A stretch of 38,857 nt of DNA from a virus (IMGVR_UViG_2636415906_000002); one strand, 5' to 3'; counted from the first letter of the stretch, positions 1-38,857 are shown. Notes: generated by a model not told the origin, from the sequence alone. Numbers and translations: made by a program.

Positions 1-893
1 TTTAATACCTCTTTGTTTACTGGGGTTAATATCTGAGATGGTAGTTCTGAAAGATTCTCTTGTTCAAGTATATGTTGAAAGCTTTTATTCATCATTATGA
101 TGTTAAAAATCTCATTTACTATTAGTAGGTTGGTTTTTATGAATTTTGAGTTGTTATAAACAGATTTATGTTCAGCGATACTATTTTCATAAAGCTCAAT
201 CAACTCCTCTGCAGTCATCCTTTTTGATGGTTTGTGATAATAAAATCCGGCTGCTTTTGCACCTTTATTCCCAACTGTTCTTTGATTTAGAATGTGTTTT
301 ATCTTTATAATGTCCCGACTTTTTATTAATTTTTTATCATATGCTTCGGTAAGAATATCTTGTGCTTCCTCAGTTTCACATCTTGCAAATTGCACTGCGA
401 GATACAGAGGCAAATTACCCCGTTCGACTGCTGAGAGAAGTTTATGCTCTCCCTTATCAAGTAGCATATTAATACTGCTCACCCAGTTCGATGAATATCC
501 AGTAATCTCACTTATTTCGGAGTCTGAAAGTCCTCTGATTTTCATGTCTTTAATCACCTGTAATAACTCATTAGAACGTGGTCTTCTCCTTGCAATGTTT
601 TCAACTAAACTCATAACGTAAGCATCTTCTTCTGATACATCTCTTATAATTGCTGGAATAATAGTTTCACCTAATGCAACGAGAGCCTCTATTCTCCCTT
701 GACCACAAATTAAAGCATATTTGAAATCGCCTTCATCAATAGCTCTTACGCTTATTGGCTTGCTTAATCCTCTTTTTTTTATGCTTTCCTTTATTTCTTC
801 ATGCACTACCTTATTTCTTGTTCGTGGGTTAAGAAATTTTATTTTTGCAATCTCAATTTGAATTATTGGGAATTCATTTTTTTCAGGCAGCAT
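1..893 (-). CDS. ParB/RepB-like N-terminal nuclease-domain protein (partial; C-terminus beyond window start)
   Basis: Manual reverse-complement translation from ATG 893..891 (RBS GAGGGA upstream) stays open to the window edge (about 297 codons); N-terminus IQIEIAKIKFLNPRTRNKVVHEEIKESIKKRGLSKPISVRAIDEGDFKYALICGQGRIEALVALGETIIPAIIRDVSEEDAYVMSLVENIARR fits the ParB/Srx fold with a GQGR arginine motif; AT-rich; start overlaps stop of upstream recombinase by 11 nt. Absent from ORF track because it has no in-window stop. Confidence 0.55.
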   Translation of the reverse strand, partial: MLPEKNEFPIIQIEIAKIKFLNPRTRNKVVHEEIKESIKKRGLSKPISVRAIDEGDFKYALICGQGRIEALVALGETIIPAIIRDVSEEDAYVMSLVENIARRRPRSNELLQVIKDMKIRGLSDSEISEITGYSSNWVSSINMLLDKGEHKLLSAVERGNLPLYLAVQFARCETEEAQDILTEAYDKKLIKSRDIIKIKHILNQRTVGNKGAKAAGFYYHKPSKRMTAEELIELYENSIAEHKSVYNNSKFIKTNLLIVNEIFNIIMMNKSFQHILEQENLSELPSQILTPVNKEVL

Positions 894-2439
894 ATAGTTC
901 CCTCACTTTCATGCGAGTAATAATTTGTAGAAGTTTATCAAGATTATCAAATCTATAGAGATCTAATCGAATGTTGTTTGTTTCCGTCATGCACATTTTA
1001 TTATATTCGTTTTCAATCTTTGGTATGATATAAAAATCAAGAGGTGAAATATTTTGTGAATTCATTCGTATAACAATTGTTATGTCTGCTTTCTGTGAGT
1101 TATCAAACCGGACTTTCCATCTAAGTTTACCTGATTTCATATGTATGCATTTAGTAACAAGGACGGAAATTAAAAACTCATCATTGATGTAAAGCATTGG
1201 GGCATATTTATACTCGTCTATATGACAGTTACTTTTTAAAATTTCACCCTTAAAATCCTCAATTATCTCTGAGTAAAATGATCTTAGTGCTTCATTTATT
1301 TTGAGATAGCTGTAATCATGTTCTGGCTTATAACCAATCAAAGTATATGCTCTTAAAAGACCACCAAATCGGGTTCTATAAACAGAAGATGAAGGGCCTG
1401 TATCATCTTCATCAATGATAAAGCCTGATAGTTTTCCATTAGATTCTAATTTTTGTTTTAGTTTTTCTAATAGATCTTCATTAGTCAAATGAATGGATCG
1501 GAGCTGAATTATTTCTTGAGCTTTATTGTATTTTTTCTTTGAAATAATAGGTTTATATGCCTTGTCACATCTAACCCATTCATGTTTGGGGTTTTTTACA
1601 AGCCTACTTTTTAATTTAGATGAGGTTTTGTTATATATGTTGTTTCCAATATATTTTTCATTTGTCAAAATTTGATGTATTTTTGCACGAGTCCATAATG
1701 TTCCATTTTCTGCAGGTATGTTCTGTTCATTTAATCTCTCAGCAATAATGAATTCTGGGACGTTATTATCTATAAAGAGATCATATATTCTATTTACAAT
1801 TTTTATTTCATTTTTTGGTCCCGGAATTAATATTACCCTATCTGTTTGAATACTCTTTCTTTTGCGGAAACTCAATATTTCTTTAGCTATGCCATTTTCG
1901 TCTACTAAAAGACGTCTCAGCCCATAACCAGCCATACCGCCTTGATGATAACCAAGCTTTATTAAATTTACTTGCCCTATAAATACCTTTTCAGATAGAT
2001 TCCTGCTGTGATATGCAGCACTAGATCTTTTTATATTCAGTATAACAGAGGACTCTAAAGGGAAATCTTTAGTGGGTATAGGTTCGGAACAATATATAAG
2101 ATCTACACCATTTCTCTCAAATAGAAAGGAATAATATGCCGCTTCATCACTATTTTGAAAACGACCAAAACGGCTCACATCATAAAATAATACAGCCTGT
2201 ATATCTATTTTCTTTTGTTCTACATCGCTAAGTAACTGCTGCAAAGAATGCCTGCCTACGATACTGACTCCGCTCTTACCTGCATCATCGTAGGTATAAG
2301 CGATTTCCATATTGTTCTTTTCAGCATAATCTTTGATATATTCGGACTGATTATGTAAAGAATATTGCTGATGGTCGGTAGACATCCTCAAGTACTGCGC
2401 GACCCTAACTCTATGATTTTTGTCATTTTCGCTAGCCAT
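883..2439 (-). CDS. large serine recombinase (resolvase-type catalytic domain + recombinase domain)
   Basis: 518-aa ORF; N-terminal VAQYLRMSTDHQ catalytic-serine motif and DDAGKSG...R pattern of resolvase domain, then GYHQGGMAGYGLRR recombinase-domain signature; strongly AT-rich. Confidence 0.7.
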   Translation of the reverse strand: MASENDKNHRVRVAQYLRMSTDHQQYSLHNQSEYIKDYAEKNNMEIAYTYDDAGKSGVSIVGRHSLQQLLSDVEQKKIDIQAVLFYDVSRFGRFQNSDEAAYYSFLFERNGVDLIYCSEPIPTKDFPLESSVILNIKRSSAAYHSRNLSEKVFIGQVNLIKLGYHQGGMAGYGLRRLLVDENGIAKEILSFRKRKSIQTDRVILIPGPKNEIKIVNRIYDLFIDNNVPEFIIAERLNEQNIPAENGTLWTRAKIHQILTNEKYIGNNIYNKTSSKLKSRLVKNPKHEWVRCDKAYKPIISKKKYNKAQEIIQLRSIHLTNEDLLEKLKQKLESNGKLSGFIIDEDDTGPSSSVYRTRFGGLLRAYTLIGYKPEHDYSYLKINEALRSFYSEIIEDFKGEILKSNCHIDEYKYAPMLYINDEFLISVLVTKCIHMKSGKLRWKVRFDNSQKADITIVIRMNSQNISPLDFYIIPKIENEYNKMCMTETNNIRLDLYRFDNLDKLLQIITRMKVRELYAA

Positions 2440-2609
2440 GCACGAAACCTCATGGATGATTCAATACAATGTAGTGGATAAAATTGATCAAATTTCAACC
2501 GAATTCAACTGTTTTATCATTGATTAGAGCGAATTTGGTAGATCTTCGAGGTGTATGATAATCGAGAAGAGATGTGAATTATTTAGCTGATATGACCGAC
2601 AGCTTTCGT

Positions 2610-2659
2610 TATGTGGACTCAATGTCCCCATTTGTAAATGGCTATGCTTAGTCCACATA
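2610..2659. promoter_or_regulatory. 10-bp perfect inverted repeat TATGTGGACT / AGTCCACATA with 30-bp spacer in the integrase - recombinase intergenic region
   Basis: read directly from sequence (2610..2619 and 2650..2659); lies upstream of the serine recombinase start. Confidence 0.3.
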
Positions 2660-2721
2660 GGTTAATGGTGTGATTATTAATTCTTTAACTAAATCAAGAT
2701 AGTTAATCCATCATGGGAGAG

Positions 2722-3951
2722 TTATGCGGCAATAACTTTGCATTTTTGAGACGAAACATAGTCACTCCACCATTGCATGAGAACCACCCGTTCAGTGAGA
2801 TACTCTGCACGATTGTAGGCTGCAATTATTTCATCTTTCTTCGAGTGGGCAAGGGCGGCTTCTAAGACATCAGTCCTAAACTTGCCAGACTCCTCAGCAG
2901 CCGTTCTAGCAATGGATCGCATACCGTGAGCTACAAGCTCACCTCCGAAACCCATACGGATTATGGCCGCATTAGCTGTTTGTTCATGCATGTGATTGAG
3001 TGGAGCTTTGATACTGGGGAACACCCACTCTCTATGCCCGCTGATGACTTTCATTAAATCCAAAACTCGCAAAGCTTCTTTGCTCAGTGGAACTTTGTGA
3101 GGCTTCTTCATTTTCATAAACTCCGCCGGGATGTTCCACATGCCAGTTTCAATATCAATATCTGACCATCTTGTGCGAACAGCTTCACCTGGGCGAACCC
3201 ATGTGAGAAGTTGCCACTCAATCAGTAGCCTTGTTTCCAAACGGATAGAAGCATTGTTTAGAGCAACCAAGAAGCGAGGGAGTTCGGAAGGGGGTAATGC
3301 TGGCATATTCTGTTTTTTTGGCTTGCTGAACCGTTGCCCCAGGTTGTCTGCCGGGTTGAATTCTATGAGTTCTTCTGTTGCTGCATAGCGGAAAATTTCA
3401 TTCAGGCGGGATATGATGCGGCGAAGTGTTTCAAGGACACCTCGTTTTTCTATGGGTTCTAAATGCTGTTTAAGCATTTTAGGGCGAATCTCCTTAATTG
3501 GGGTATCACCCAATGTGGAAAAGATATTTCTCTCTAGGCTTCGCCAGATGTCGTTAGCATGATCTTGGGAGATGCCTGACGTTTTGACTTTCTCATCAAG
3601 CCACTTCTTGGCTACTGCTTGAAATGTATGTTCCGTGGCATCTTTCAGTGCATTGGCTTTTTGGTTGTTATGAACTTGGGGGTCTATACCATTTGTAAGC
3701 AACGACAAGTATTCATCACGTAAAGCTCGTGCCTTCGCAAGTGTAAGGTGAGGATAGGTTCCTAAGCTCACCTTAGTTCGCTTTTTGGTCACAGGCACTG
3801 CATATCTGAAATACCAATTTTTCTTCCCTCCCTTCGCCAGGGGAGCGATTCGCAACAGCAAACCATCGCCGTCAAAAAGGTTAACCTCTTTTTCGGCAGG
3901 TTTGGTGCTTTTGATTTCAGTGTCAGTGAGCTTCTTAGCGATTTTGGCCAT
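2722..3951 (-). CDS. tyrosine integrase, P4/CP4-57 IntA family
   Basis: ORF 2722..4032; probable true start ATG at 3951 giving MAKIAKKLTDTEIK...FDGDGLLLRI...WYFRY, the typical N-terminus of P4-family integrases; C-terminal catalytic region (GMRSIARTAAEESG...AYNRAEYL); sits directly downstream of an ssrA 3-prime-end copy and terminator. Confidence 0.85.
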   Translation of the reverse strand: MAKIAKKLTDTEIKSTKPAEKEVNLFDGDGLLLRIAPLAKGGKKNWYFRYAVPVTKKRTKVSLGTYPHLTLAKARALRDEYLSLLTNGIDPQVHNNQKANALKDATEHTFQAVAKKWLDEKVKTSGISQDHANDIWRSLERNIFSTLGDTPIKEIRPKMLKQHLEPIEKRGVLETLRRIISRLNEIFRYAATEELIEFNPADNLGQRFSKPKKQNMPALPPSELPRFLVALNNASIRLETRLLIEWQLLTWVRPGEAVRTRWSDIDIETGMWNIPAEFMKMKKPHKVPLSKEALRVLDLMKVISGHREWVFPSIKAPLNHMHEQTANAAIIRMGFGGELVAHGMRSIARTAAEESGKFRTDVLEAALAHSKKDEIIAAYNRAEYLTERVVLMQWWSDYVSSQKCKVIAA

Positions 3952-4049
3952 GTTTGGGACCCTCGATTTTAGGACCCATCTTCGTGGGTCCCATTCAGGG
4001 TGCCATAACTCGTAGTTCTCAGCAATTCTCACTAGACTACAATAGACGT

Positions 4050-4082
4050 AAAAAAGCCCGCAGAGCTTGTGCTGTGCGGGCT
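4050..4082 (-). terminator. intrinsic terminator (ancestral ssrA-downstream hairpin, now left at attL)
   Basis: minus-strand AGCCCGCA - loop - TGCGGGCT followed by TTTTTT. Confidence 0.5.
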
Positions 4083-4113
4083 TAGTAGACTTTACTGAAC
4101 TTCAGTACATCAA

Positions 4114-4162
4114 TATTTGGTGGAGCTGGCGGGAGTTGAACCCGCGTCCGAAATTCCTACAT
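4114..4162. repeat. attL: 49-bp direct repeat (45 nt of ssrA 3-prime end + 4 nt), identical to 37794..37842
   Basis: TATTTGGTGGAGCTGGCGGGAGTTGAACCCGCGTCCGAAATTCCTACAT present at both positions; flanking bases diverge on both sides. Confidence 0.85.
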
Positions 4163-4247
4163 ACCATTTTCACTATAGCAAAAACATTAACTTGCGTTTA
4201 AAATCAGTAAGTTAGTATTATCTTGTGTTTGTCCGTTTTACTCATTT

Positions 4248-5294
4248 TTAATGTTCTGTCGCCAATCTGTCGCCATTGTAGGTCAACGAAGGTTGAGCCT
4301 TCCCTTTGTTTGTTACAATTTCATCAAAGATAGCTGGATTATTATCTTTCAGTAATCTTGCTAGTATAATGATTTGCCCAGACGAGCCATCATCCTTGAA
4401 TGAAAGGAAATTATCGGTAATATCAAGAATATCAATGGTAAATTTGAAGTAGGTTTCAATTGTATCGCCAAGTTCAATGCTGGACATGAAGTTAGTAATC
4501 ATTTCATATCCATCAAAGTATAAAGTTGCATGTTCATTTAACTCCATGGGAGTTAGGCAAAGCATTCGATTAAGTTCGGATAAGTGTTTTTCTATTGAAT
4601 GAAGAGATTGCATTTGACGGATTAAAACTTCGGCAAACTGAGAGCCACGATTAGATGAATGTATCTTCTCTAGGTTTTTTAGTATATCAACCCAGTGATT
4701 ATTTACTTCACGTATGTATTCTTTATCTGTATTTTTAGGCCGTCCCTTCTCTGGTGAGCTATTTATGAAAATATATCTATATAGATGTATTGGGTAGTTT
4801 ATTTTATAACTTATCTCTTTAGTACCATAATGACGTTCGCGTTTAATGGTTTTGTTAGGTAAATTGGTGAAATAATCAGTAACGAACTTTAGATGGCTAT
4901 AGTAGCTATCAGATAGATTCTTTTGCTTGGTTTCCTCAATTTGTCGGTTTGTTTGAACTGTGCGGTGTATGTTTGCTACGACAGCAACAAATGGTATGGA
5001 CAAAGAAAGTAAGGCGATAGGAAGCTTGCTAATTGCAATGAAATTATTAAAGCCCTCACTATCAAATTGAGGGGAATGTCCAAGCCAGGAAAATATACCA
5101 AAGTATATCGCTGAAAATACAGGAATCCTAAGTGATTGTTTAAATAAGTATTGACTTGTTAATGGCCTTTCATCCATGTTAAAGCCTTTTTTTGATACGC
5201 ATAGATATAATTCAAGGCATATATATAAAAAATATATTATGATAAGTAAGTACGATATCCATGGGTATTGTGGGATATAGTTATTAACAAGCAC
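4248..5294 (-). CDS. membrane-anchored protein of unknown function (att-proximal prophage cargo)
   Basis: 348-codon ORF with GTG at 5294 overlapping int stop by 11 nt (alternative ATG at 5177 gives 309 aa); 2-3 N-terminal hydrophobic helices then about 240-aa soluble domain with no motif I recognise; markedly AT-rich. Confidence 0.55.
   Translation of the reverse strand: MLVNNYIPQYPWISYLLIIIYFLYICLELYLCVSKKGFNMDERPLTSQYLFKQSLRIPVFSAIYFGIFSWLGHSPQFDSEGFNNFIAISKLPIALLSLSIPFVAVVANIHRTVQTNRQIEETKQKNLSDSYYSHLKFVTDYFTNLPNKTIKRERHYGTKEISYKINYPIHLYRYIFINSSPEKGRPKNTDKEYIREVNNHWVDILKNLEKIHSSNRGSQFAEVLIRQMQSLHSIEKHLSELNRMLCLTPMELNEHATLYFDGYEMITNFMSSIELGDTIETYFKFTIDILDITDNFLSFKDDGSSGQIIILARLLKDNNPAIFDEIVTNKGKAQPSLTYNGDRLATEH
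4256..4276. repeat. tandem CTGTCGCCA 9-mers (candidate integrase arm-type sites, P-arm side of attP)
   Basis: CTGTCGCCA at 4256..4264 and 4267..4275; same 9-mer recurs at 37730..37738 and inverted at 37702..37710 on the other side of the att core. Confidence 0.3.
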
Positions 5295-6324
5295 TTTCTA
5301 ATTTTCTCCATCCAAGGTTAGCAAGAGGATTTTTGGTTACAGCATCTTCCAGATGGTCGGGAGCGAAGTGGGCGTAAATCATTGTCATTTTTATATCGAC
5401 ATGGCCCAGAATATCGCGCAGCACCAGTATGTTTCCGCCATTCATCATAAAGTGACTTGCAAATGTATGTCGTAATACGTGTGTGCATTGCCCTTCTGGT
5501 AGCTCGATACCAGCTCGTTTTACCGCACGTTCAAAAGCTTTCCTACAAGGTGTAAATAATTTTCCCCTATTCTTAGGCAGTTCTTCATATAAATCCTTTG
5601 AAATAGGCACTGTTCGGTTTTTCTTTCCTTTAGTCTTGGTATAAGTGATACGGTATTTTGATACCTGATGACTCTGTAGGTTTTCGGCTTCGCTCCAGCG
5701 TGCGCCGGTGGCCAAGCATATTTTTGCAATCATCAGCAGACTGGGGCTTTGAGAATCAGCACAGGCATCCAGCAGACGTTTAATTTCTTCCGGGGTCAGG
5801 AACGCCAATTCACCCTCAGCAATTTTAAATGTTGGCAGCCCAGCAAGCGGGTTGGGGGCTGACCAGTGGCCCAGCTTTTTCAGTGTACCAAAAACAGATG
5901 ATAGGTTGCGCTGTTCAAGATTTACCGTGCGGGGCTTAACGGGCGACATAAGCGTGCCATCTTCATTTCGTACTTCACCTTTTAACCGTGCTTCGCGGTA
6001 TTTCGTAAACTCACCAGCTGTCAGTTCTGAGGCGATGGGATCGCCTAGACCATTACAGATAATTCTAAGTTTCGCCATGAGGCGCTTGGGGTCTGCGAGT
6101 GTTTGACCATACAGGGAATACCACAGCTCAATTAATTCTGATAGATGTCGCCGATCTTCCTTTTCCCCTAGCCATGGTTTTTTGTTCACTTCTTCCATTG
6201 TGAAGCTTTCAAACGCAATGGCTTCGCCTTTGGTAGCAAATTGCTTACGCACGCGCTTACCATTGCGTCCATTGGGATAGCACTCACACAACCATTTTCC
6301 GTTCGGCTGTTTTCTGATGGTCAT
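5284..6324 (-). CDS. int: P2/186-type tyrosine integrase
   Basis: 346 aa; LATGARWSEAENL ... HVLRHTFASHF ... IKMTMIYAHF catalytic R / HxxR / Y pattern; positioned next to attL and downstream of repressor as in P2. Confidence 0.9.
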   Translation of the reverse strand: MTIRKQPNGKWLCECYPNGRNGKRVRKQFATKGEAIAFESFTMEEVNKKPWLGEKEDRRHLSELIELWYSLYGQTLADPKRLMAKLRIICNGLGDPIASELTAGEFTKYREARLKGEVRNEDGTLMSPVKPRTVNLEQRNLSSVFGTLKKLGHWSAPNPLAGLPTFKIAEGELAFLTPEEIKRLLDACADSQSPSLLMIAKICLATGARWSEAENLQSHQVSKYRITYTKTKGKKNRTVPISKDLYEELPKNRGKLFTPCRKAFERAVKRAGIELPEGQCTHVLRHTFASHFMMNGGNILVLRDILGHVDIKMTMIYAHFAPDHLEDAVTKNPLANLGWRKLESAC

Positions 6325-6327
6325 AAG

Positions 6328-6966
6328 TTAGAGGTTCTTGATTACTTTGACTGCACGTCCTACGACTTCCACATCATCTACAGAACATTCAAATGAAGTG
6401 TCATCTTGGTTAACTACTATTTTGTTTCCGGGTATGCGCGCAATTTTGACGATGCTTTTAACTCCGTCCATATCGACTAACCAGAAGCCATTACTGACTT
6501 GTTTAACAGACGTATCCACTACAAAGCTATCATTAGCTGTTTTAACAAATAAAGCGTTGGATGAGTCACCATCGAGCAGGCTGCTATCAAGAAGAATTTC
6601 ATCACTTGGCTGCAGTTCGCCGTTCTTCAGTTCAACACGTTTGATGCTAGGAGCAACGATCTTAGAAAGTGGTCTTACAGTGACGGGAGGTTCATTTTTG
6701 AGATTTGTTTCTTCGTTCTCACACGCATACATATCTCCTTGACCAGTAGCCAGCCATAGAAGGGAAGCTCCTGTTTCAAGGGCACATTGGATTACCCATT
6801 CGGCAGGAAAGCTATCCCTTAAGTATCTGTTAGCCATAGTGCTTTTTGATACTTCCAGATGTTCGCAGAGCTGCTGTCGTGAGCTGAAGTTGTAAGCCTT
6901 AATAAGCCTATTAATCGCATCGCGCCCACCACTATCATTCCCCGCCTTGATTAAACTCATAATCAA
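6328..6966 (-). CDS. cI: immunity repressor, 186 CI-like
   Basis: 212 aa; N-terminal HTH-like region (SSRQQLCEHLEVSKSTMANRYL) and C-terminal domain; divergent from apl/cII across an operator-rich intergenic region; cotranscribed with int. Confidence 0.75.
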   Translation of the reverse strand: MIMSLIKAGNDSGGRDAINRLIKAYNFSSRQQLCEHLEVSKSTMANRYLRDSFPAEWVIQCALETGASLLWLATGQGDMYACENEETNLKNEPPVTVRPLSKIVAPSIKRVELKNGELQPSDEILLDSSLLDGDSSNALFVKTANDSFVVDTSVKQVSNGFWLVDMDGVKSIVKIARIPGNKIVVNQDDTSFECSVDDVEVVGRAVKVIKNL

Positions 6967-9152: not shown

Positions 9153-10006
9153 GCACCATCCTGAAATGGGCGGGAAATAAAACCGCCATTATGTCCGAAC
9201 TGAAAAAACACCTTCCTGCTGGCCCGCGACTGGTTGAACCTTTCGCGGGTTCCTGTGCTGTGATGATGGAGACGGATTACCCCAGCTATCTGGTTGCGGA
9301 TATTAATCCTGATTTAATCAACCTCTATAAAAAGGTTGCCTCTGATTGTGAATCGTTTATATCTCGCGCCAGAGTTTTATTTGAGATCGCAAACAGGGAG
9401 GTGGCTTATTACAACATAAGGCAGGAGTTTAATTACTCCACTGAAATTACTGATTTCATGAAAGCGGTATATTTCCTGTATCTCAATCGTCACGGTTACC
9501 GTGGTTTATGTCGCTATAACAAGAGCGGGCATTTCAACATTCCCTACGGTAATTATAAAAATCCGTATTTTCCTGAAAAAGAAATTCGCGCATTTGCAGA
9601 GAAAGCCCAGCGTGCAACGTTTATCTGCGCAAGCTTTGATGAAACGCTGGCGATGCTGCAGGTGGGGGATGTGGTGTATTGCGATCCGCCGTATGACGGT
9701 ACGTTTTCCGGCTATCACACTGATGGTTTCACTGAAGATGACCAGTATCACCTGGCATCCGTTCTTGAACATCGGTCATCAGAAGGACATCCGGTCATTG
9801 TTTCTAACAGTGATACATCCCTGATCCGTTCGCTGTATCGCAATTTTACTCACCACTACATCAAGGCAAAACGCAGCATCGGTGTAGCAGCTGGTGAGAG
9901 TAAATCTGCAACAGAAATCATCGCTGTTTCCGGGCCGCGCTGCTGGGTGGGATTTGATCCTTCGCGTGGCGTGGATAGTTCTGCCGTGTACGGAGTGCGT
10001 GCATGA
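9149..10006 (+). CDS. dam: DNA adenine methyltransferase (Dam / D12 class)
   Basis: [15 protein letters not shown] and DPPY motifs; RBS GGAGG; start at 9149 inside ORF 9089..10006. Confidence 0.85.
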
Positions 10007-12417
10007 GCCATGCTGATATGAACAACTGCAGCGGCTTTAACAAGGTCGCCGCAGCATTCTCATGGAACAGCCCGAAAAAGGCCATTAACCCTTATCTGGA
10101 CCCGGCGGAAGTTGCGCCGGTTTCTGCGCTTTCAAACCTGATCACTCTGTACGCTACCGATAACGAGCAGGAACAACTGCGCCGCGAGGCACTGAGTGAT
10201 CAGGTCTGGGAGCGTTATTTCTTTAATGAATCCCGTGATCCTGTCCAACGCGAAATGGAGCAGGATAAGCTCATTAGCCGGGCAAAGATGGCGCATGAGC
10301 AGCAGCGTTTTAATCCAGACATGGTCATTCTGGCTGACGTCAACGCCCAGCCTTCCCATATCAGCAAGCCGCTGATGCAACGTATTGAATATTTCAGCAG
10401 CCTGGGCAGGCCAAAGGCTTATTCCCGCTATTTGCGTGAGACGATTAAGCCATGTCTGGAACGACTGGAGCATGTACGCGACAGCCAGCTATCTGCATCT
10501 TTTCGTTTTATGGCAAGCCATGAAGGGCTGGACGGTCTGCTGATCCTGCCTGAAATGAGTCAGGATCAGGTGAAACGCCTGTCTACCCTTGTCGCTGCGC
10601 ATATGAGCATGTGTCTTGATGCCGCTTGTGGTGATTTGTACGCCTCCGATGATGTTAAGCCAGAAGAAATCCGCAAGACATGGGAAAAGGTGGCTGCAGA
10701 AACCCTGCGACTGGATGTCATACCGCCTGCGTTTGAGCAACTCCGCCGGAAAAGAAACCGCCGCAAACCTGTGCCTTATGAACTCATTCCGGGTTCGCTG
10801 GCGCGTATGCTGTGCGCCGACTGGTGGTATCGGAAATTATGGAAGATGCGTTGCGAATGGCGGGAAGAGCAGTTGCGTGCTGTCTGCCTGGTCAGCAAAA
10901 AAGCATCTCCCTATGTCAGCTATGAAGCCGTGATGCATAAACGTGAGCAGCGCCGTAAGTCGCTGGAGTTTTTCCGTTCTCATGAACTGGTGAACGAAGA
11001 CGGCGACACGCTGAACATGGAGGATGTGGTAAACGCCAGCAGCAGCAACCCGGCGCATCGCCGCAACGAGATGATGGCCTGTGTTAAAGGCCTGGAGCTT
11101 ATCGCGGAAATGCGTGGTGACTGCGCCGTTTTCTACACCATCACCTGTCCGTCACGTTTCCATTCCACGCTAAATAACGGCAGGCCAAACCCGACCTGGA
11201 CAAACGCGACGGTAAGACAAAGCAGCGATTATCTGGTCGGCATGTTTGCTGCATTTCGTAAGGCTATGCACAAAGCCGGGTTGCGCTGGTATGGCGTGCG
11301 GGTGGCTGAGCCGCATCATGACGGCACAGTTCACTGGCACCTGTTGTGTTTCATGCGCAAAAAAGACCGCCGCGCCATTACTGCATTGTTGCGTAAGTTT
11401 GCCATCCGAGAAGACCGCGAGGAGCTGGGCAATAACACGGGGCCACGCTTTAAGTCTGAGCTGATAAACCCGCGCAAAGGAACGCCGACAAGCTACATTG
11501 CGAAATATATCAGTAAGAATATTGACGGGCGTGGTCTGGCTGGCGAGATCAGTAAGGAAACGGGTAAATCCCTGCGTGATAACGCTGAATACGTTAATGC
11601 CTGGGCGTCTCTGCATCGTGTTCAGCAATTCCGCTTCTTTGGCATTCCGGGGCGTCAGGCTTACCGTGAACTGCGATTGCTGGCTGGTCAGGCGGCAAGG
11701 CAACAGGGTGACAAAAAAGCAGGTGCGCCGGTACTGGATAACCCGCGCCTTGATGCCATCCTGGCTGCTGCTGATGCTGGTTGTTTTGCCACCTACATCA
11801 TGAAGCAGGGCGGCGTACTGGTTCCCCGCAAATATCACCTCATCAGAACCGCTTATGAAATCAACGAAGAGCCAACCGCCTATGGCGATCACGGTATTCG
11901 TATTTATGGCATCTGGTCACCCATTGCAGAGGGCAAGATCTGCACTCATGCAGTGAAGTGGAAAATGGTTCGTAAGGCCGTTGACGTTCAGGAGGCGGCA
12001 GCCGACCAGGGCGCTTGCGCCCCTTGGACTCGTGGCAATAACTGTCCCCTTGCTGAAAATTTGAACCAACAGGAGAAAGATAAATCAGCTGATGGGGACC
12101 CCAGAACGGACATTACCAGCATGGATGACAAGGAGTTGCACGATTACCTGCACAGTATGAGCAAAAAAGAGCGCCGGGAACTGGCAGCAAGGTTATGCCT
12201 GGTGAAACCGAAACGGCGTAAAGACTACAAACAGCGAATTACAGACCATCAGCGACTGCAGCTCGTGTATGAGCTGAAGTCCAGAGGATTTGATGGCAGC
12301 GAGAAAGAGGTCGATTTACTCCTTCGCGGAGGCAGTATTCCGTCAGGAGCAGGCCTGCGTATCTTCTATCGGAACCAGCGTTTGCAGGAAGATGATCAGT
12401 GGCGGAACCTGTATTAA
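10003..12417 (+). CDS. A: replication initiation protein A (rolling-circle nickase, P2 gpA family)
   Basis: 804-aa protein in the P2 A position, translationally coupled to dam (ATGA overlap). Confidence 0.9.
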
Positions 12418-12571: not shown

Positions 12572-12760
12572 ATGCAGGACTATTTTTTGGAGTCTTTGAA
12601 GCTCCAGCGCATTGATTTTTTTCTTAAGCTTGTAGCGGCTAGTGAGTGTAGTGATGAAGAGAAGGGGCTGGCTCTGCAGTGGGTTTCTGAATTGACTGAT
12701 GAACTCATGGCAAAAATCAGAACCCACGAATACAACCGCTCAATGGATGTCATCAGCTGA
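12572..12760 (+). CDS. Tum-like antirepressor N-terminal segment (62 aa)
   Basis: RBS AGGAGGA; first gene downstream of the LexA box; overlaps the upstream extension of the DinI-like ORF in the +1 frame. Confidence 0.45.
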   Translation: MQDYFLESLKLQRIDFFLKLVAASECSDEEKGLALQWVSELTDELMAKIRTHEYNRSMDVIS

Positions 12761-12770
12761 GGTGACTTTT

Positions 12771-13004
12771 ATGCGCATTGAAATAATGATCGATAAAGAG
12801 CAGAAGATTAGCCAGTCTACCCTGGACGCCCTTGAATCCGAGCTTTACCGCAATCTGCGCCCCCTGTATCCCAAAACGGTAATTCGCATTCGCAAAGGTA
12901 GCTCTAACGGTGTGGAACTAACCGGACTGCAACTGGACGAAGAAAGAAAACAAGTGATGAAAATTATGCAGAAGGTGTGGGAAGACGACAGCTGGCTGCA
13001 TTAA
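12771..13004 (+). CDS. DinI-like protein (equivalent to the C-terminal half of a 186 Tum-type antirepressor)
   Basis: MRIEIMIDKEQKISQSTLDALESELYRNLRPLYPKTVIRIRKGSSNGVELTGLQLDEERKQVMKIMQKVWEDDSWLH resembles DinI; ATG 12771. Confidence 0.7.
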   Translation: MRIEIMIDKEQKISQSTLDALESELYRNLRPLYPKTVIRIRKGSSNGVELTGLQLDEERKQVMKIMQKVWEDDSWLH

Positions 13005-13227: not shown

Positions 13228-13321
13228 CGCGCGCTGAGATATGAATTAGTAATAGTTGTTTTAATCTATCTTGTTAAGTAAATTAACGATCAACCCATGG
13301 TCATGTCTAGGGAATGATGAT

Positions 13322-15103
13322 ATGAATTTTGATGCAACTCCTTTAAATATTAAAAATATACTTTCTGTTAAACAGCGTTATGTGATTCCACGGAATCAAC
13401 GAGAATTTAGTTGGGAAAAGTTACAACTTGATGAATTGTGGCAAGACATAATAAGAAATATAAAATTAAATCCCAAAGGGGATGACTTTGAATTCAATGA
13501 GTACTTTATTGGTACAATTGTATTGTCTGGTGCTGACAGTGATAATGTTTTGGAGATTGTTGATGGTCAGCAGCGTTTCAGTGTTATTACAATTCTACTT
13601 TCTTTAATTTCTAGGTTTTTAAGAAAAAATGGGAAGGCCGAATTTGCTGATGATATTTTTAAAACATATATCGTAACCGCAAATCAGACGTTCAATAGAA
13701 ATTCTGTCAGTTCTAATGGCGACTCAGTAGTTGAGAAGCTTTCTAAAAATAGTGACAGGGCTTTTTTTAAACTAAAATTCCAAGATAGAGTTGAGCATAA
13801 AGCTGATGTGACTTGCGATGAAGATAAAAAGATTCAATATGCTGGGTTGTATTTAAGTAGAAAGCTAGGAAAGAAAGCATTATGTTCTTCTTTGTTGCGT
13901 GACGGTGCAGTAAAGTATAAAAAGGAAGATTACCTTTTTTGCTTGAATGCCGTTTACAATATGGTTACTAATTATCTTAAATTAGTAAGGATATCAGTAG
14001 GCAAGGAAGATGACGCGTATGATATTTTCGAGGTTTTGAATGCAAGGGGAATAAACTTAAGCTCCCTTGATCTGATTAAAAATAAAGTTTTCCAGAGTTG
14101 TATTGAAACATATCCAATAGATAAAGCCAAAGAGAAATGGGATTATATTACTAATTGCATCGAAGCTAGAGATAGTAACGCTACAATGGTTGATTATGTC
14201 AGGTGTTGGTGGCTTTCTAAGTTTAATTATATAGGTGAAGATCAACTATACCGTGCCTTTAAAAGAGAGATAAATGATGGTGTTTATGGATTAACTGCAA
14301 TTTCATTTTTGGATGAGTTGCATAAAGATGTTGATTTATATTGTAAGATAATTTCTCCAGATATTGATGATTGGCCTCAACAGGATCAGCGAGATATTTA
14401 CAATTCACTTAAAGCATTTGAAATATTCAATGTTTCAATCCCTCGCCCATTCATTTTGTCATTATTAAGAAAAAGAAGAGATAAATCTAGAAGTCTTTCG
14501 CAAAAAAGTTTAATAGAGTGTCTAATGTGTTTAGAGAGATTCCACTTTAGATTTAATGCTATTTGCCGATTAAGACCCTCTGGCATAGACGCCAAGTATT
14601 CAGTATTAGCAGTAAGCCTTGATAAAGCTACTAATAAACGTAGTATCGAATCAACCATTAGTGAAGCAATAGCATACTTTTCTGCGAAAAGTCCAAATGA
14701 AAAAGTATTCAATGAGGCATTTGTTAAAAATTTATTTTATACAAATAAAAAAGCCTCCCAGCGTAAGCTCATAATGTATATTTTTGAACGTTTTGAAAAG
14801 AAATTGCGAGGAACTAATGAGTTAAAATTAGACTTAGTTTCACTCGAGCATATTGGTGCACAAAGTAGTTTTGACTCAGAGGTTGTTGGATTAATGGGGA
14901 ATCTTCTTCCTCTTTGCTTTACTTTGAATGAATCATGTAAAAATGATAGCTTAAGTAAAAAAATAAACGAGTATAAGAAGTCAAACCTTAAGGTGGTTAA
15001 TGAGTTTATTGATGAGTATTCATCTAACGATGAGGAATGGAATGCCCAAAAAGTTCAGATTAGAACATTATCTATGTCAGCGAAGGCCTATAATATAATC
15101 TAA
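13322..15103 (+). CDS. DUF262/DUF1524 two-domain nuclease, GmrSD/BrxU-like type IV restriction-type defence protein
   Basis: 593 aa from ATG 13322; N-terminal DGQQR motif (13562..13576) typical of DUF262 ParB-like NTPase domain; C-terminal LEHIGAQ ... GNLLPL ... NESCKN His-Me finger-like motif (E509/H510 at 14846..14851); AT-rich; own terminators on both sides. Confidence 0.7.
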   Translation: MNFDATPLNIKNILSVKQRYVIPRNQREFSWEKLQLDELWQDIIRNIKLNPKGDDFEFNEYFIGTIVLSGADSDNVLEIVDGQQRFSVITILLSLISRFLRKNGKAEFADDIFKTYIVTANQTFNRNSVSSNGDSVVEKLSKNSDRAFFKLKFQDRVEHKADVTCDEDKKIQYAGLYLSRKLGKKALCSSLLRDGAVKYKKEDYLFCLNAVYNMVTNYLKLVRISVGKEDDAYDIFEVLNARGINLSSLDLIKNKVFQSCIETYPIDKAKEKWDYITNCIEARDSNATMVDYVRCWWLSKFNYIGEDQLYRAFKREINDGVYGLTAISFLDELHKDVDLYCKIISPDIDDWPQQDQRDIYNSLKAFEIFNVSIPRPFILSLLRKRRDKSRSLSQKSLIECLMCLERFHFRFNAICRLRPSGIDAKYSVLAVSLDKATNKRSIESTISEAIAYFSAKSPNEKVFNEAFVKNLFYTNKKASQRKLIMYIFERFEKKLRGTNELKLDLVSLEHIGAQSSFDSEVVGLMGNLLPLCFTLNESCKNDSLSKKINEYKKSNLKVVNEFIDEYSSNDEEWNAQKVQIRTLSMSAKAYNII

Positions 15104-15148: not shown

Positions 15149-16183
15149 TTAACAGTTTAAGGCATAAGTTTTAAAGTTAACTACTTTCTCACCAAGCCAG
15201 TGATTTAGTTCCTTTAGTCGTTTCTGCAATGGTATTAACTCATTACGAACAAAAACGAGACTGGCCTTCTCCACATCCCCAAACCCCCCAACATTATTCG
15301 GCAAAATTCCCATCATCTGCGGCGGTACGCGGTGTGCAGCCATCATGTCGTCCCGGCTCACGTTCTTGATGTTCAGAAATTCATCTTTCGCTGCGACTTC
15401 TGACAACGGGATGATCTGAAGCCCGTCCTTTTTGCCGTTAGGCGAGTACATAAACAGGTTGCGGAAGTTGCCAGGGCCTTTGGCGCTTTTCATCGCGTTG
15501 CGGAGGTTGTTCACATCTTCCTGGTTCTGCGCGGCGTCGGTCATATACATGATGAAGCCTGCATGACTGCCGTTAATGTAATACTTGCGGCGGAACAGCG
15601 TGGCAGACTCGTTGAGCAGGGCGGATGGAATAGCAGAAAGATAACCGGGCAGGCCGTAGATCTCCTGGTTGATGTCCGGTTCCATCAGATGAAAGATGCT
15701 GCCTTTCGTGAACTGATATGGCTGCGTGGTCATACCGTATTGCACAAACCAGTAGGTATCCAGGTCTAACCCGCGTCGGGTGTATTTTGCCAGGGCAGGT
15801 TCAAGGGCGATAACTTCACCGAAGCGGTTCGTGCGTTTCTCCAGGTAGGCGTTACCAAATACCAGATAGTCCTGCACAAAACGCGAAAAAGCCTGCTGGC
15901 TGAGCAGCGGATGAGGGATGTAGGTGCTGGTCAGAATGTTGCACTTTACTGCAATCGGGGAACTATGATGAACGGCAGCGCGGAAGGTGCGCGCCAGTCC
16001 GTCAAAGCTGACGGGCGGCTCATACCAGCGGTCCATCTGTACGCATTCCACATAATCCAGCAGTTCTCGGCGGTCCAGAACAGGAACGGGATCGCCGAAG
16101 CTGAATGCTTCGGCTGTAGTTTGACTTTTAAGCTGGATCTGTTTCGTCGCCGCAGCGCGGTTCTTCTTACTCTTTCCCATCAA
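15149..16183 (-). CDS. Q: portal protein
   Basis: 344 aa; P2 gpQ position and size, overlaps terminase stop. Confidence 0.9.
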   Translation of the reverse strand: MMGKSKKNRAAATKQIQLKSQTTAEAFSFGDPVPVLDRRELLDYVECVQMDRWYEPPVSFDGLARTFRAAVHHSSPIAVKCNILTSTYIPHPLLSQQAFSRFVQDYLVFGNAYLEKRTNRFGEVIALEPALAKYTRRGLDLDTYWFVQYGMTTQPYQFTKGSIFHLMEPDINQEIYGLPGYLSAIPSALLNESATLFRRKYYINGSHAGFIMYMTDAAQNQEDVNNLRNAMKSAKGPGNFRNLFMYSPNGKKDGLQIIPLSEVAAKDEFLNIKNVSRDDMMAAHRVPPQMMGILPNNVGGFGDVEKASLVFVRNELIPLQKRLKELNHWLGEKVVNFKTYALNC

Positions 16184-37172: not shown

Positions 37173-37195
37173 AACCTGCTACGGCAGGTTTTTAT
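37173..37195 (+). terminator. intrinsic terminator after ogr
   Basis: AACCTGC-TACG-GCAGGTT followed by TTTTA. Confidence 0.5.
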
Positions 37196-37674
37196 TCATC
37201 TGGGATCTCACCCGTTTCAAGAAAATGTATAAAGCCAGGCTCATCTATGATGATTGTGCCTTTCATCCTGGCTGCCGATACTTTTGATGGGCCTGCATTG
37301 TAACCGCAACAGAGCATCTGAAGGCTTTGGGTTACAGAGGTTCTTACCGTTAATCCTTGTTCATTCGCCTTATCAACCAATCTTTCTTTATCTGCTTTCT
37401 TAAATCCGGTGAAACACACATCGAATGTATTTTTTTTCGGACCAGACTGCTTAGTGAGATGTGAGTAGCTTTCGGGGAGGAATGACGCGCATTCCTGAAT
37501 GGCTTGTTCTGGTGAATCGTACTGTTTAAGAATGCGGTCTTTTCGGAAGGTTTTTATTCGATCGGTGTTCTTACAAATGCCCTGTATATGATTTTCGCTA
37601 TAACTGATGCTCTGTATAGAGTGAACACCGATACGACCATTTGCATTGATGTAAACAAAGTGAAGTTCTTCCAT
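37192..37674 (-). CDS. small WYL-like + BRCT-domain protein (att-proximal prophage cargo)
   Basis: 160 aa, RBS AAGAGG; C-terminal FDVCFTGF...GLTVRTSVTQ...LCCGYNAGPSKVSAARMKGTIIIDEPGFIHFLETGE aligns by eye to the LigA-type BRCT domain; N-terminal RIGVHSIQS...TFRKDRI resembles a WYL-domain core. Confidence 0.6.
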   Translation of the reverse strand: MEELHFVYINANGRIGVHSIQSISYSENHIQGICKNTDRIKTFRKDRILKQYDSPEQAIQECASFLPESYSHLTKQSGPKKNTFDVCFTGFKKADKERLVDKANEQGLTVRTSVTQSLQMLCCGYNAGPSKVSAARMKGTIIIDEPGFIHFLETGEIPDE

Positions 37675-37700: not shown

Positions 37701-37739
37701 ATGGCGACAGGCAAGATGGACGCAAAAGTCTGTCGCCAT
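37701..37739. promoter_or_regulatory. 10-bp perfect inverted repeat ATGGCGACAG - N19 - CTGTCGCCAT upstream of the BRCT gene (candidate operator / integrase arm sites)
   Basis: read directly; shares the CTGTCGCCA 9-mer with 4256..4275. Confidence 0.35.
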
Positions 37740-37758
37740 TTTGCCGCCACTACCAAAG

Positions 37759-37787
37759 AAAAAGGGGCTACGCTTTCACGTAACCCC
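37759..37787 (-). terminator. intrinsic terminator for ssrA supplied by the prophage arm
   Basis: minus-strand GGGGUUACG-UGAAAG-CGUAGCCCC followed by UUUUU, 11 nt past the tmRNA 3-prime end. Confidence 0.55.
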
Positions 37788-37793
37788 TTGATT

Positions 37794-37842
37794 TATTTGG
37801 TGGAGCTGGCGGGAGTTGAACCCGCGTCCGAAATTCCTACAT
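37794..37842. repeat. attR: 49-bp direct repeat overlapping the 3-prime end of intact ssrA
   Basis: identical to 4114..4162. Confidence 0.85.
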
Positions 37843-38160
37843 CCTCGGTACTACATGCTTAGTCAGTCTTTACATTCGCTTGCCAGCTGCGGACGGACAC
37901 GCCACTAACAAACTAGCCTGATTAAGTTTTAACGCTTCAACCCCAGGCAGGGCTTCCACGCGATCTCTTTTGGGTTTGACCTCTCTTGATCCCCGTCCTA
38001 AGAGCGGAGGCTAGGGAGAGAGGGCTCTAAGCAGGTTATTAAGCTGCTAAAGCGTAGTTTTCGTCGTTTGCGACTATTTTTTGCGGCTTTTTACGAGGCC
38101 AACCGCCCCTCGGCATGCACCTTGGGTTTCGCAAATCCCGTCGAATCCAGAATCAGCCCC
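37798..38160 (-). ncRNA. ssrA: tmRNA (SsrA), 363 nt
   Basis: reverse complement reads GGGGCUGAUUCUGGAUUCGACGGG ... tag-reading-frame region ... GGGUUCAACUCCCGCCAGCUCCACCA, matching enterobacterial tmRNA from memory. Confidence 0.95.
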
Positions 38161-38374: not shown

Positions 38375-38857
38375 TTAACGGTGGGCGTTTTTCATGATAC
38401 GTGCTTTATCCACCTGCCATTCGCGTTCTTTGATATCTGAACGTTTATCGTGCTGTTTTTTACCTTTGGCGACGCCGATTTTCACTTTGCACCAGGCATT
38501 TTTCCAGTACAGGGAGAGCGCCACTACGGTATAGCCTTCTCGATTGACGCGACCGTACAATGAGTCCAGTTCGCGTTGGTTGAGAAGTAACTTGCGGGTA
38601 CGGGTAGGATCGCACACCACATGCGTGGAGGCCACGGCCATTGGCGTGATGTTAGCGCCAAACAGAAATGCCTCTCCGTCACGCAGAAGGACGTAGCTGT
38701 CGCTGATATTGGCTTTTCCTGCGCGCAGGGATTTAACCTCCCAGCCTTGCAGGGCAAGTCCCGCTTCGAACTCTTCTTCGATAAAGTATTCGTGACGGGC
38801 GCGCTTGTTAAGCGCGATGGTCGCTGAACCAGGTTTATGTGCTTTTTTCTTCGTCAT
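38375..38857 (-). CDS. smpB: SsrA-binding protein SmpB
   Basis: 160-aa [51 protein letters not shown]... essentially the E. coli SmpB sequence; start codon at window end. Confidence 0.95.

What the first reader, a model, noticed from the sequence alone, without database searches (positions are those of the whole stretch)
4163..5294. AT-rich membrane-protein gene wedged between attL and int - orphan cargo, candidate exclusion or abortive-infection effector
A 348-codon minus-strand ORF is co-directional with int and overlaps its stop by 11 nt (GTG 5294; alternative ATG 5177). It has 2-3 N-terminal hydrophobic helices (WISYLLIIIYFLYICLELYLCV, IPVFSAIYFGIFSWLG, FIAISKLPIALLSLSIPFVAVVA) and then about 240 aa with no motif I can place. 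Its composition is far more AT-rich than the phage core, and P2-type phages normally carry nothing between att and int. Together with the WYL-like/BRCT gene on the other side of attP it would form a contiguous, co-oriented two-gene module in the circular phage.
Basis: partly seen in the sequence, partly recalled or inferred. Interest (0 to 1): 0.6.

Follow-up and report, generated by a model that had tools for sequence, protein, structure and literature searches.

The report
Prophage membrane protein, likely anti-phage
A real, swappable cargo gene sits between the integrase and the attachment site of an E. coli prophage; it encodes an inner-membrane protein of a large uncharacterised family with no known relatives, and its position and variability suggest, without any experiment, that it protects the lysogen against other phages.

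Summary
A 348-codon minus-strand ORF (4248-5294) starts 11 nt before the int stop and lies inside a 186/P2-like prophage bounded by an exact 49-bp ssrA repeat (4114-4162 / 37794-37842). It is 34% GC against 52% for the prophage.

It is not an orphan. It matches PHROG 17460 and at least 821 protein clusters, none annotated. In 72 of 80 viral contigs it is the gene directly after a 186-type int.

The predicted protein has three N-terminal membrane helices (N-out, C-in). TM2-TM3 plus a juxtamembrane helix are conserved (52% identity among 72 alleles). The roughly 200-aa cytoplasmic domain is hypervariable (20%) and has no structural relative in the PDB.

The slot is polymorphic among related E. 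coli prophages: empty, this family, or unrelated AT-rich genes. Int stays above 90% identical while the cargo falls to 26%.

The best reading is a lysogen-expressed inner-membrane anti-phage protein, either abortive infection or exclusion. This rests on context only.

The proposed two-gene module with the BRCT gene is not supported. A strong terminator separates them, and the BRCT gene is present whatever fills the slot. Weak PADLOC "2TM effector" hits are sporadic and do not establish membership.

The parts
4248..5294 (-). Cargo gene: 348-aa inner-membrane protein (PHROG 17460 family), GTG start
   Evidence: ORF listing and sequence. PHROG 17460 at 3.1e-155 over the full length. Homologues in the same position.
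5284..5294 (-). 11-nt overlap between the int stop and the cargo start (probable translational coupling)
   Evidence: Start at or overlapping the int stop in divergent alleles.
5193..5261 (-). TM1 (residues 12-34): poorly conserved in sequence, conserved in hydrophobicity
   Evidence: 18% mean identity, but hydrophobic in 70 of 72 alleles. Absent in some distant 2-TM members.
4860..5177 (-). Conserved core (residues 40-145): pre-TM2 segment, TM2 (49-71), short periplasmic loop, TM3 (84-108) and the juxtamembrane helix carrying the NIHRTIQT..QI..KN..D..YSH.K motif
   Evidence: Alignments A1, A2, A5. Q48, H110 and Q114 are invariant in 140 members. 52% mean identity among 72 alleles.
4275..4859 (-). 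Hypervariable cytoplasmic alpha/beta domain (residues 146-340), fold without a detectable relative
4257..4275 (+). Two TGTCGCCA repeats 11 bp apart (probable Int arm-type sites of attP). The last codons of the cargo ORF run through them.
   Evidence: 13 matches in the window against 3.9 expected; 5 of them sit at the two prophage ends.
4114..4162 (.). attL core: exact 49-bp copy of the ssrA 3' end
4054..4068 (-). Terminator-like hairpin just outside attL (the displaced native ssrA terminator). First predicted stop for a cI-int-cargo transcript in the prophage.
   Evidence: No terminator-like site is predicted on the minus strand between 4248 and 4163.
5284..6324 (-). 186-type tyrosine integrase, upstream gene of the same transcription unit
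   Evidence: Pfam Int_N and Phage_integrase.
6328..6966 (-). 186-type CI repressor, first gene of the leftward lysogenic unit
   Evidence: Pfam Phage_CI_repr and Phage_CI_C.
37794..37842 (.). attR core, inside the intact ssrA gene (37798-38160)
37762..37789 (-). Phage-borne terminator directly after the att core. It replaces the ssrA terminator. In the circular phage it separates the cargo gene from the BRCT gene.
   Evidence: 12-bp stem, -23.6 kcal/mol, z = -3.3.
37731..37749 (+). Second pair of TGYCGCCA repeats (the other attP arm), with an inverted copy at 37702-37709

Best explanation
The ORF is a genuine accessory gene of a 186-like prophage integrated at ssrA.

Shown:
- It is the last gene of the leftward cI-int unit and starts inside the end of int.
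- It lies in a one-gene slot between the int stop and the probable Int arm-type repeats next to the att core. Related prophages have this slot empty, filled by very divergent alleles of the same family, or filled by unrelated AT-rich genes.
- The predicted protein has three membrane helices.
- The TM2-TM3 hairpin and a polar juxtamembrane helix are conserved. The roughly 200-aa domain after them is hypervariable and has a novel fold.

Inferred:
- The topology is N-out/C-in, from charge distribution, which puts the variable domain in the cytoplasm.
- The protein is made at a low level in the lysogen together with CI and Int, and protects the lysogen against other phages.

The mechanism I consider most likely is sensor-effector. 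The variable cytoplasmic domain recognises a component of an infecting phage. The conserved membrane module then oligomerises or opens, collapses the membrane potential and aborts the infection. A non-lethal block of genome entry at the inner membrane is the close second, listed as a rival.
For: Gene reality and start.

Position in the prophage. The neighbours are CI and Int. In phage 186 an int-lacZ translational fusion is used to measure leftward transcription (PMC7708051).

Same position in relatives:
- 72 of 80 IMG/VR loci and 5 of 7 genome loci have the gene directly after a 186-type int.
- In unrelated tailless Vibrio prophages it lies directly after a LexA-like CI repressor at the prophage border. 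PMC11630473 describes variable, defence-enriched loci often near the borders of such prophages, frequently flanked by a transcriptional regulator.

Slot polymorphism: empty, this family, a 222-aa membrane protein, or a 418-aa protein.

Decoupled divergence: int 91-96% identical while the cargo is 26-48%.

Conserved membrane core against a hypervariable C-domain: 52% versus 20%. This is the pattern of a fixed effector with a changing sensor.

Topology: the positive-inside distribution of charges is read directly from the sequence.

Literature: the int-att interval of P2-like prophages is a reported minor defence hotspot (PMC13586616). A validated defence gene, PD-T7-4, is reported to often overlap an integrase gene (PMC9519451).

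The same prophage carries a GmrSD gene in the classical A-Q hotspot. In Kosakonia the homologue lies next to a KAP NTPase.
Against: There is no functional data of any kind.

No significant similarity to any known defence, exclusion or pore-forming family:
- Pfam and NCBIfam give nothing.
- PADLOC gives one 20.6-bit hit for this protein and at most 2 of 140 members per transmembrane model, scattered over 2TM, 4TM, PycTM and KwaA models.

Guilt by position is weak. Most hotspot genes are untested, and the int-att interval holds only 3% of recognised P2 defence systems.

No promoter or expression evidence was obtained; the promoter scan is at background. A 34% GC gene could be silenced by H-NS (my inference).

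The conserved periplasmic loop fits an entry-blocking role as well as it fits a pore.
Confidence: 0.5

Rival explanations
1. Superinfection-exclusion protein that blocks genome entry without killing the cell. The conserved TM2-loop-TM3 module would occupy or distort an inner-membrane component that incoming phages use for DNA translocation, or bind their ejection or tape-measure proteins. This would resemble lysogeny-module Sie proteins of lactococcal phages, P22 SieA or T4 Imm.
For: It is an inner-membrane protein in the lysogeny unit. The best-conserved parts include the short periplasmic loop (G72, H73, P75, F77, G81, F82 invariant among close alleles; G81 and F85 nearly invariant across 140 members) and the membrane helices. 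The position matches that of lactococcal sie genes and Ltp, which lie within int-repressor modules (my knowledge, not checked here).
Against: Only about 22 residues are predicted to face the periplasm. The large, fast-evolving part is cytoplasmic, which is hard to explain for a blocker of entry. There is no sequence or fold similarity to any Sie protein.
Confidence: 0.2
2. Lysogenic-conversion or fitness factor unrelated to phages, for example envelope modification, stress or colonisation. This is the type of gene that sits next to att-int in serotype-converting phages.
For: The att-int neighbourhood is the classical place for O-antigen modification genes in Shigella and Salmonella phages (my knowledge). 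The gene is AT-rich, accessory and encodes a membrane protein.
Against: There is no glycosyltransferase, acyltransferase, flippase or any enzyme-like match by Pfam, NCBIfam or fold. Extreme allelic diversity at a fixed slot is more typical of arms-race genes. The family also occurs in marine Vibrio, Pseudomonas and Xenorhabdus elements.
Confidence: 0.12
3. A function for the phage's own life cycle or for counter-defence. Examples: a membrane factor aiding lysis, DNA entry or exit, or integration and excision control, or an inhibitor of a host defence system.
For: It is translationally coupled to int, and the ORF ends inside probable Int arm sites. It is carried within the att-delimited genome, and a 98.9% identical copy is present in a deposited phage record, OK490418.1.
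Against: It is dispensable. Prophages whose int is about 91% identical at protein level, with the same att, lack it or carry unrelated genes. It lies in the lysogenic unit, not in the lysis cassette. At 348 aa with a large cytoplasmic domain it does not look like a holin.
Confidence: 0.1
4. Membrane toxin that acts as an addiction or stabilisation module for the prophage, or a spurious or decaying ORF.
For: Small membrane-active proteins are common toxins. No partner gene is needed if expression is tightly limited by coupling to int (inference).
Against: There is no antitoxin candidate in the one-gene slot. The ORF is intact across hundreds of clusters with conserved motifs, so it is not spurious. 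One disrupted copy was seen: L023 has about 1.3 kb inserted.
Confidence: 0.05

Closest known systems
PHROG 17460 (phage protein family of unknown function)
   Same: Full-length profile match, 3.1e-155, residues 4-332 on profile positions 2-343. This is the family to which the gene belongs.
   Different: The PHROG carries no function. This work adds the position rule (after int, or after the repressor), the domain layout and the breadth of the family (at least 821 clusters).
Lambda RexAB, and mycobacteriophage Sbash gp30/gp31 (prophage abortive-infection systems co-expressed with the repressor)
   Same: A lysogen-expressed gene distal in the repressor transcription unit, with a membrane component proposed to depolarise the cell on sensing infection. 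This is an analogy of logic and position, from my knowledge of those systems.
   Different: Those are two-protein systems: a cytoplasmic sensor plus a 4-TM channel. Here one polypeptide would carry both parts. There is no sequence or fold similarity, and no partner gene in the slot.
2TM membrane effectors of CBASS and type IV retrons (PADLOC PDLC00691, PDLC02912; SLATT-like)
   Same: A two-helix membrane hairpin followed by a helical stretch. There is one weak PADLOC match for this protein: 20.6 bits, E = 8e-5, residues 55-163.
   Different: Matches are sporadic, at most 2 of 140 family members per model, and also touch 4TM, PycTM and KwaA models. There is no Pfam SLATT hit. NCBIfam gives only one weak SLATT_6 hit among 42 members (E = 0.047). 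No cyclase or reverse transcriptase lies nearby. The extra 200-aa domain is absent from those effectors.
Lysogeny-module superinfection-exclusion proteins (lactococcal Sie2009, S. thermophilus Ltp, P22 SieA)
   Same: A membrane-associated protein encoded in the int-repressor module of a temperate phage and expressed in the lysogen (my knowledge of those systems).
   Different: Those are smaller, act from the outer face of the membrane and are unrelated in sequence. Here the bulk of the protein is predicted to be cytoplasmic.
Defence hotspots of P2-like prophages (old/tin locus, Z/fun locus, and the minor int-att hotspot)
   Same: The gene occupies the int-att interval, which PMC13586616 reports as holding 3% of recognised P2 defence systems. 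The same prophage has a GmrSD gene in the main A-Q hotspot.
   Different: The occupant here is not recognised by PADLOC. The paper does not mention this family in its main text. Its supplements were not available.

Membership tests
PHROG 17460 | Significant full-length match to the family profile | tested here: met
   E = 3.1e-155, 517.8 bits, residues 4-332 on profile positions 2-343 of 343.
CBASS / retron 2TM (SLATT-like) effectors | Consistent profile similarity of the family to 2TM or SLATT models | tested here: not met
   This protein gives one hit of 20.6 bits. Among 140 members, at most 2 match any one model, and the hits scatter over 2TM, 4TM, PycTM and KwaA. Pfam SLATT models give no hit in 42 members. 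NCBIfam SLATT_6 matches 1 of 42 at E = 0.047.
CBASS / retron 2TM (SLATT-like) effectors | Encoded next to a CD-NTase or a retron reverse transcriptase | tested here: not met
   The neighbours are int and the att site in the window and in 72 of 80 viral loci. The slot holds a single gene.
CBASS / retron 2TM (SLATT-like) effectors | Two-helix transmembrane hairpin | tested here: met
   TM2 (49-71) and TM3 (84-108) in the model and the hydropathy profile. Distant members have only these two helices.
Rex-type two-component abortive infection (RexA/RexB) | 4-TM channel protein plus an adjacent cytoplasmic sensor gene, co-transcribed with the repressor | tested here: not met
   There are three TM helices, a single gene and no partner. 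There is no Pfam match. Only the position, distal in the repressor unit, is analogous.
Cargo of the P2-like int-att hotspot (PMC13586616) | Located between int and the att site, inside the att-delimited element | tested here: met
   The att core is at 4114-4162, the gene at 4248-5294 and int at 5284-6324.
Cargo of the P2-like int-att hotspot (PMC13586616) | Presence/absence and replacement polymorphism among related elements | tested here: met
   Empty slots in L002 and L003. A 222-aa gene in L098, a family allele in L099 and a 418-aa gene in L100. Span classes among 44 two-piece hits: 9 empty, 29 of about 740 bp, 5 of about 1.1 kb, and 1 of 1.36 kb. One locus per class was inspected.
Cargo of the P2-like int-att hotspot (PMC13586616) | Recognised or experimentally shown anti-phage activity | not testable with these tools
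   PADLOC does not recognise it. No experiment is available.
Holins | Small (under about 150 aa) membrane protein in the lysis cassette next to an endolysin | tested here: not met
   It is 348 aa, lies in the lysogenic unit after int, and has a 240-aa soluble part.
Serotype-converting genes at att-int (GtrABC, Oac) | Glycosyltransferase, flippase or acyltransferase domains | tested here: not met

The most novel reading that the evidence does not exclude
The family is a previously unrecognised, widespread single-protein anti-phage system of temperate phages. It would have a conserved 2-TM plus juxtamembrane effector fused to a hypervariable cytoplasmic sensor of novel fold. It would be carried as an exchangeable one-gene cassette wedged between int and the Int arm sites, or after the repressor in tailless Vibrio prophages, and expressed by coupling to the lysogeny genes. 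Domain swaps of the C-terminal part would then re-target specificity.
Probability: 0.35. Interest if true: 0.65.

Novelty: new variant of a known kind. Interest (0 to 1): 0.5.

Why it matters
If the family is defensive, it adds a large group to the catalogue of prophage-encoded immunity: at least 821 clusters across Enterobacteriaceae, Pseudomonas, Vibrio and Xenorhabdus. It has a fold and a membrane module unlike those of known systems.

It would also show that the int-att interval of 186-like phages is a regular one-gene cassette site, not an occasional hotspot.

The natural series of alleles, with the same int and membrane core but different cytoplasmic domains, is a ready-made experiment on how specificity is encoded. 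Even a negative result would be useful for annotation, because the gene is currently called 'hypothetical protein', often with a start codon that removes the first membrane helix.

Tried and rejected
- A profile search of PDB sequences gave only designed helical bundles.
- The search for related loci with the diverse alignment A2 failed for lack of a conserved stretch. A1 was used instead.
- A word-indexed search with the conserved core (A3) returned only fragments of the same family and no bridge to an annotated family.
- The PADLOC '2TM effector' lead was followed on 42 and then 140 members and rejected as evidence of homology.
- PD-T7-4, reported to often overlap an integrase gene, is a Zn-finger HEPN protein of about 220 aa and is unrelated.
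- M40 as a conserved second start (a dual-start idea) was rejected. It is invariant only among close alleles and is L or I in distant members.
- Read-through from ssrA into the BRCT gene, and co-transcription of the cargo gene with the BRCT gene, were rejected because of the terminator at 37762-37789.
- A literature search for the protein accession and the PHROG id found nothing. The supplements of PMC13586616 are not held.
- The promoter scan around the gene is at background level and was not used.

Full report
**Setting.** The window is E. coli chromosome around ssrA.
- smpB lies at 38375-38857 and the tmRNA gene at 37798-38160, both on the minus strand.
- An exact 49-bp copy of the ssrA 3' end at 4114-4162 repeats 37794-37842. 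This delimits a prophage of about 33.7 kb.
- Its left end reads cI (6328-6966), int (5284-6324), then the ORF in question, all on the minus strand. cI and int have the Pfam signatures of the 186 type.
- To the left of attL lies an older island with a P4-type integrase (2722-4032) and a serine recombinase (883-2439).

**Observation.** The ORF 4248-5294 (-) is there as described.
- It has 348 codons from GTG and overlaps the int stop by 11 nt. An ATG at 5177 gives M40.
- GC content is 34.0%, against 45.9% for int and 52.0% for the rest of the prophage.
- With about 7.3% stop codons expected at this composition, a 348-codon open frame has a chance of about 3e-12 (my arithmetic).
- Hydropathy and the AlphaFold2 model agree on helices 12-34, 49-71 and 79-143. 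The model has pLDDT 80 and pTM 0.62, from an alignment of 19 sequences. The third helix is a membrane span that continues as a long cytoplasmic helix, followed by an alpha/beta domain.
- Charged residues follow the positive-inside rule for an N-out, C-in topology. The loop 35-56 carries +5/-2, the loop 73-83 carries 0/-2, and HRTVQTNRQIEETKQK follows TM3 (sequence; the topology is an inference).

**Which start?** PGAP annotates the ATG form (309 aa) in an identical prophage. The comparative data favour the long form.
- The stretch upstream of M40 stays open and aligns to the family profile from positions 6-14 in 84 of 89 loci.
- Divergent alleles start with ATG, or GTG in this subgroup, at or overlapping the int stop.
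- The segment is hydrophobic in 70 of 72 unique alleles, although it is only 18% identical.
- Some distant members do begin at the M40-equivalent and have two helices. TM1 is therefore an optional addition to a 2-TM core.

**What family?**
- Pfam and NCBIfam find nothing.
- PHROG 17460 (unknown function) matches over the full length at 3e-155.
- A word-indexed search finds 29 clusters, all 'hypothetical' and all enterobacterial.
- An exhaustive profile search finds 821 clusters at E of 1e-3 or better and 126 at 1e-30 or better. Most are 320-380 aa and match over both parts.
- No Pfam or NCBIfam family recurs among 42 diverse members.
- The most conserved positions are Q48, H110 and Q114, invariant in 140 members. 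L45, F51, P58, W70, G81, F85, P92, L96, R111, T115, Q118, I119, K125, N126, D129, H134 and K136 are at least 90% conserved. These residues lie in the pre-TM2 segment, the two helices, the short periplasmic loop and one face of the juxtamembrane helix.
- Among 72 unique alleles, mean pairwise identity is 52% in the core (residues 40-145) and 20% in the C-terminal domain.

**Structure.**
- The C-terminal domain alone models well (pLDDT 83.5, pTM 0.84).
- BFVD gives nothing, and a profile search of PDB sequences gives nothing.
- AFDB could not be searched.

**Link to known membrane effectors.** PADLOC gives one weak hit to a CBASS '2TM effector' model: 20.6 bits, residues 55-163. On 140 members, no model is matched by more than two, and the hits scatter over 2TM, 4TM, PycTM and KwaA models. 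I read this as generic transmembrane resemblance, not homology. The protein may still work like such effectors, but it is not a member of their families.

**Genomic position.**
- In 72 of 80 IMG/VR loci and 5 of 7 genome loci, the family member is the gene directly after a 186-type int, with cI upstream.
- The contig usually ends about 1 kb further on, so it is the last gene of the prophage.
- Int identity to the window's int is 66-100%, while cargo identity is 26-99%, and the two are uncoupled. L073, L077 and L079 have int at 96% and cargo at 27-28%.
- Outside this lineage, the gene follows a large tyrosine integrase in a Pseudomonas element.
- It lies at a prophage end beside int in Xenorhabdus.
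- It precedes a KAP NTPase in Kosakonia.
- In tailless (Vinavirales) Vibrio prophages it follows a LexA-like CI repressor at the element border, with a 1-nt gap. For such prophages, PMC11630473 describes variable, defence-enriched loci often near the borders and frequently flanked by a regulator.

**The slot.**
- In complete E. coli genomes this allele is rare: 13 of 5426.
- With a query spanning att to int, 44 further records appear as two joined pieces. By span they fall into four classes:
  - 9 with a gap of about 100 bp (empty);
  - 29 with about 740 bp;
  - 5 with about 1.1 kb;
  - 1 with about 1.36 kb.
- I inspected one or two loci of each class.
  - The empty slots are L002 and L003.
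  - L098 has a 222-aa protein with three hydrophobic segments.
  - L099 has a 353-aa family member (267 bits).
  - L100 has a 418-aa soluble protein with a weak RES-domain hit.
  - All are 33-34% GC.
- An alignment of the att-proximal DNA shows a shared segment of about 112 bp. It ends in two TGYCGCCA repeats 11 bp apart (4257-4275 in the window), after which the sequences diverge.
- The same repeat pair lies on the other side of the core (37731-37749). The motif occurs 13 times in the window against 3.9 expected. These are probably Int arm-type sites, as described for 186 attP in PMC7498355. That identification is an inference.
- The cargo ORFs end inside these repeats. This explains why unrelated cargo proteins share a tail such as GDRLATEH, GGTLAAAH or GGTLAAES.
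- The cassette is therefore bounded by the int stop and the arm sites.

**Expression (inferred).**
- The overlap with int, found in divergent alleles, suggests translational coupling.
- In 186, int lies on the leftward transcript; an int-lacZ fusion is used to measure leftward transcription (PMC7708051).
- No terminator-like site lies between the gene and attL. The first is the displaced ssrA terminator at 4054-4068.
- The promoter scan is at background.

**The BRCT gene.**
- A 12-bp-stem hairpin with a T-run (37762-37789, -23.6 kcal/mol, z = -3.3) lies directly after the core. It serves as the new ssrA terminator and would also stop a transcript crossing attP.
- The BRCT gene is present at 95% identity or more in 170 genomes. 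These include genomes with the 222-aa cargo (for example NZ_CP051001, NZ_CP103609, NZ_CP052877) or a divergent allele (NZ_CP102853, NZ_CP024886).
- It is a stable gene of this prophage lineage, not a partner of the cargo.

**Interpretation.** Five observations point the same way:
- the position at the end of the lysogeny unit in two unrelated kinds of temperate phage;
- the replaceable one-gene slot;
- the AT-rich composition;
- the uncoupled and extreme allelic divergence;
- the layout of a fixed membrane module with a changing cytoplasmic domain.

Together they fit a lysogen-expressed anti-phage protein better than any alternative. The int-att interval has been reported as a minor defence hotspot of P2-like prophages (PMC13586616), and a validated defence gene is reported to often overlap an integrase gene (PMC9519451).

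Within 'anti-phage' I favour a sensor-effector abortive-infection mechanism, because the variable part is cytoplasmic. A block of genome entry is the main rival, because the periplasmic loop is conserved. None of this is tested. The confidence of 0.5 is for 'anti-phage, membrane-acting'. The confidence for the specific sensor-effector mechanism is about 0.3.

**Novelty.** The gene is neither a known defence gene nor a member of a known family other than an unannotated PHROG. The kind of thing, a prophage lysogeny-module membrane protein that excludes or aborts other phages, is well known. I therefore rate it a new variant of a known kind, of moderate interest and directly testable.

Noticed in passing
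window 13271-15103 (+), with 12699-13004 (+): The classical P2 hotspot between gpA (10003-12417) and the portal gene (15149-16183) is a second AT-rich island (33% GC). It holds a 610-aa GmrSD-type type IV restriction enzyme (GmrSD_N 4.5e-32, GmrSD_C 3.6e-9), preceded by a DinI-like gene.
   Followed up: partly
window 37192-37674 (-): The 160-aa ORF next to attR is annotated 'BRCT domain-containing protein' in some RefSeq records. It scores 19.5 bits on Pfam BRCT (below the cut-off) and 1.8e-7 on the C-terminal part of PADLOC candidate PDC-S48. It is present at 95% identity or more in 170 of 5426 E. coli genomes, whatever fills the int-att slot.
   Followed up: partly
window 37762-37789 (-) and 4054-4068 (-): Integration displaces the native ssrA terminator to the attL side. 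The phage supplies a strong replacement hairpin directly after the att core, so the intact ssrA copy keeps a terminator.
   Followed up: yes
window 4257-4275 and 37702-37749; L098, L099, L100, L003: TGYCGCCA repeats 11 bp apart flank the att core on both arms (probable Int arm sites). Unrelated cargo ORFs all terminate inside the left pair, which gives them a shared C-terminal tail G(G/D)xLA(A/T)(E/A)(H/S).
   Followed up: partly
L098 1636-2304 (-) and L100 1665-2921 (-) (E. coli NZ_CP028381, NZ_CP172871): Alternative occupants of the same slot. One is a 222-aa protein with three hydrophobic segments (WP_001083625.1), apparently the commonest class among the 60 listed records. The other is a 418-aa soluble protein with a weak RES-domain hit (WP_416042178.1). 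Both are 33-34% GC and unknown to PADLOC.
   Followed up: partly
window 883-4032 (-): Directly outside attL lies an older ssrA-linked island with a P4-type integrase (2722-4032) and a large serine recombinase (883-2439). The prophage therefore integrated in tandem at the regenerated ssrA end. In strain FDAARGOS_1287 the same prophage abuts glaH instead.
   Followed up: no
L009 70-1137 (-) and L010 13430-14506 (+) (Vibrio phages PQ189313, PQ189345): Tailless PM2-like (Vinavirales) Vibrio prophages carry a 355-358-aa relative of the family directly after their LexA-like repressor, at the element border.
   Followed up: partly
L023 (IMG/VR 2513237219_000007) about 3661-5001; NZ_CP020835.1 near 1261729-1263096: One copy of the cargo gene has about 1.3 kb inserted between int and residue 50, possibly an IS. 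In another genome, an IS1 lies within the match to the BRCT-gene region.
   Followed up: no
OK490418.1 11511-12554 (Klebsiella phage Kp4865-2): A 98.9% identical copy of the gene is present in a deposited, unannotated phage genome record attributed to Klebsiella. This suggests that the cargo travels with the phage across genera.
   Followed up: no
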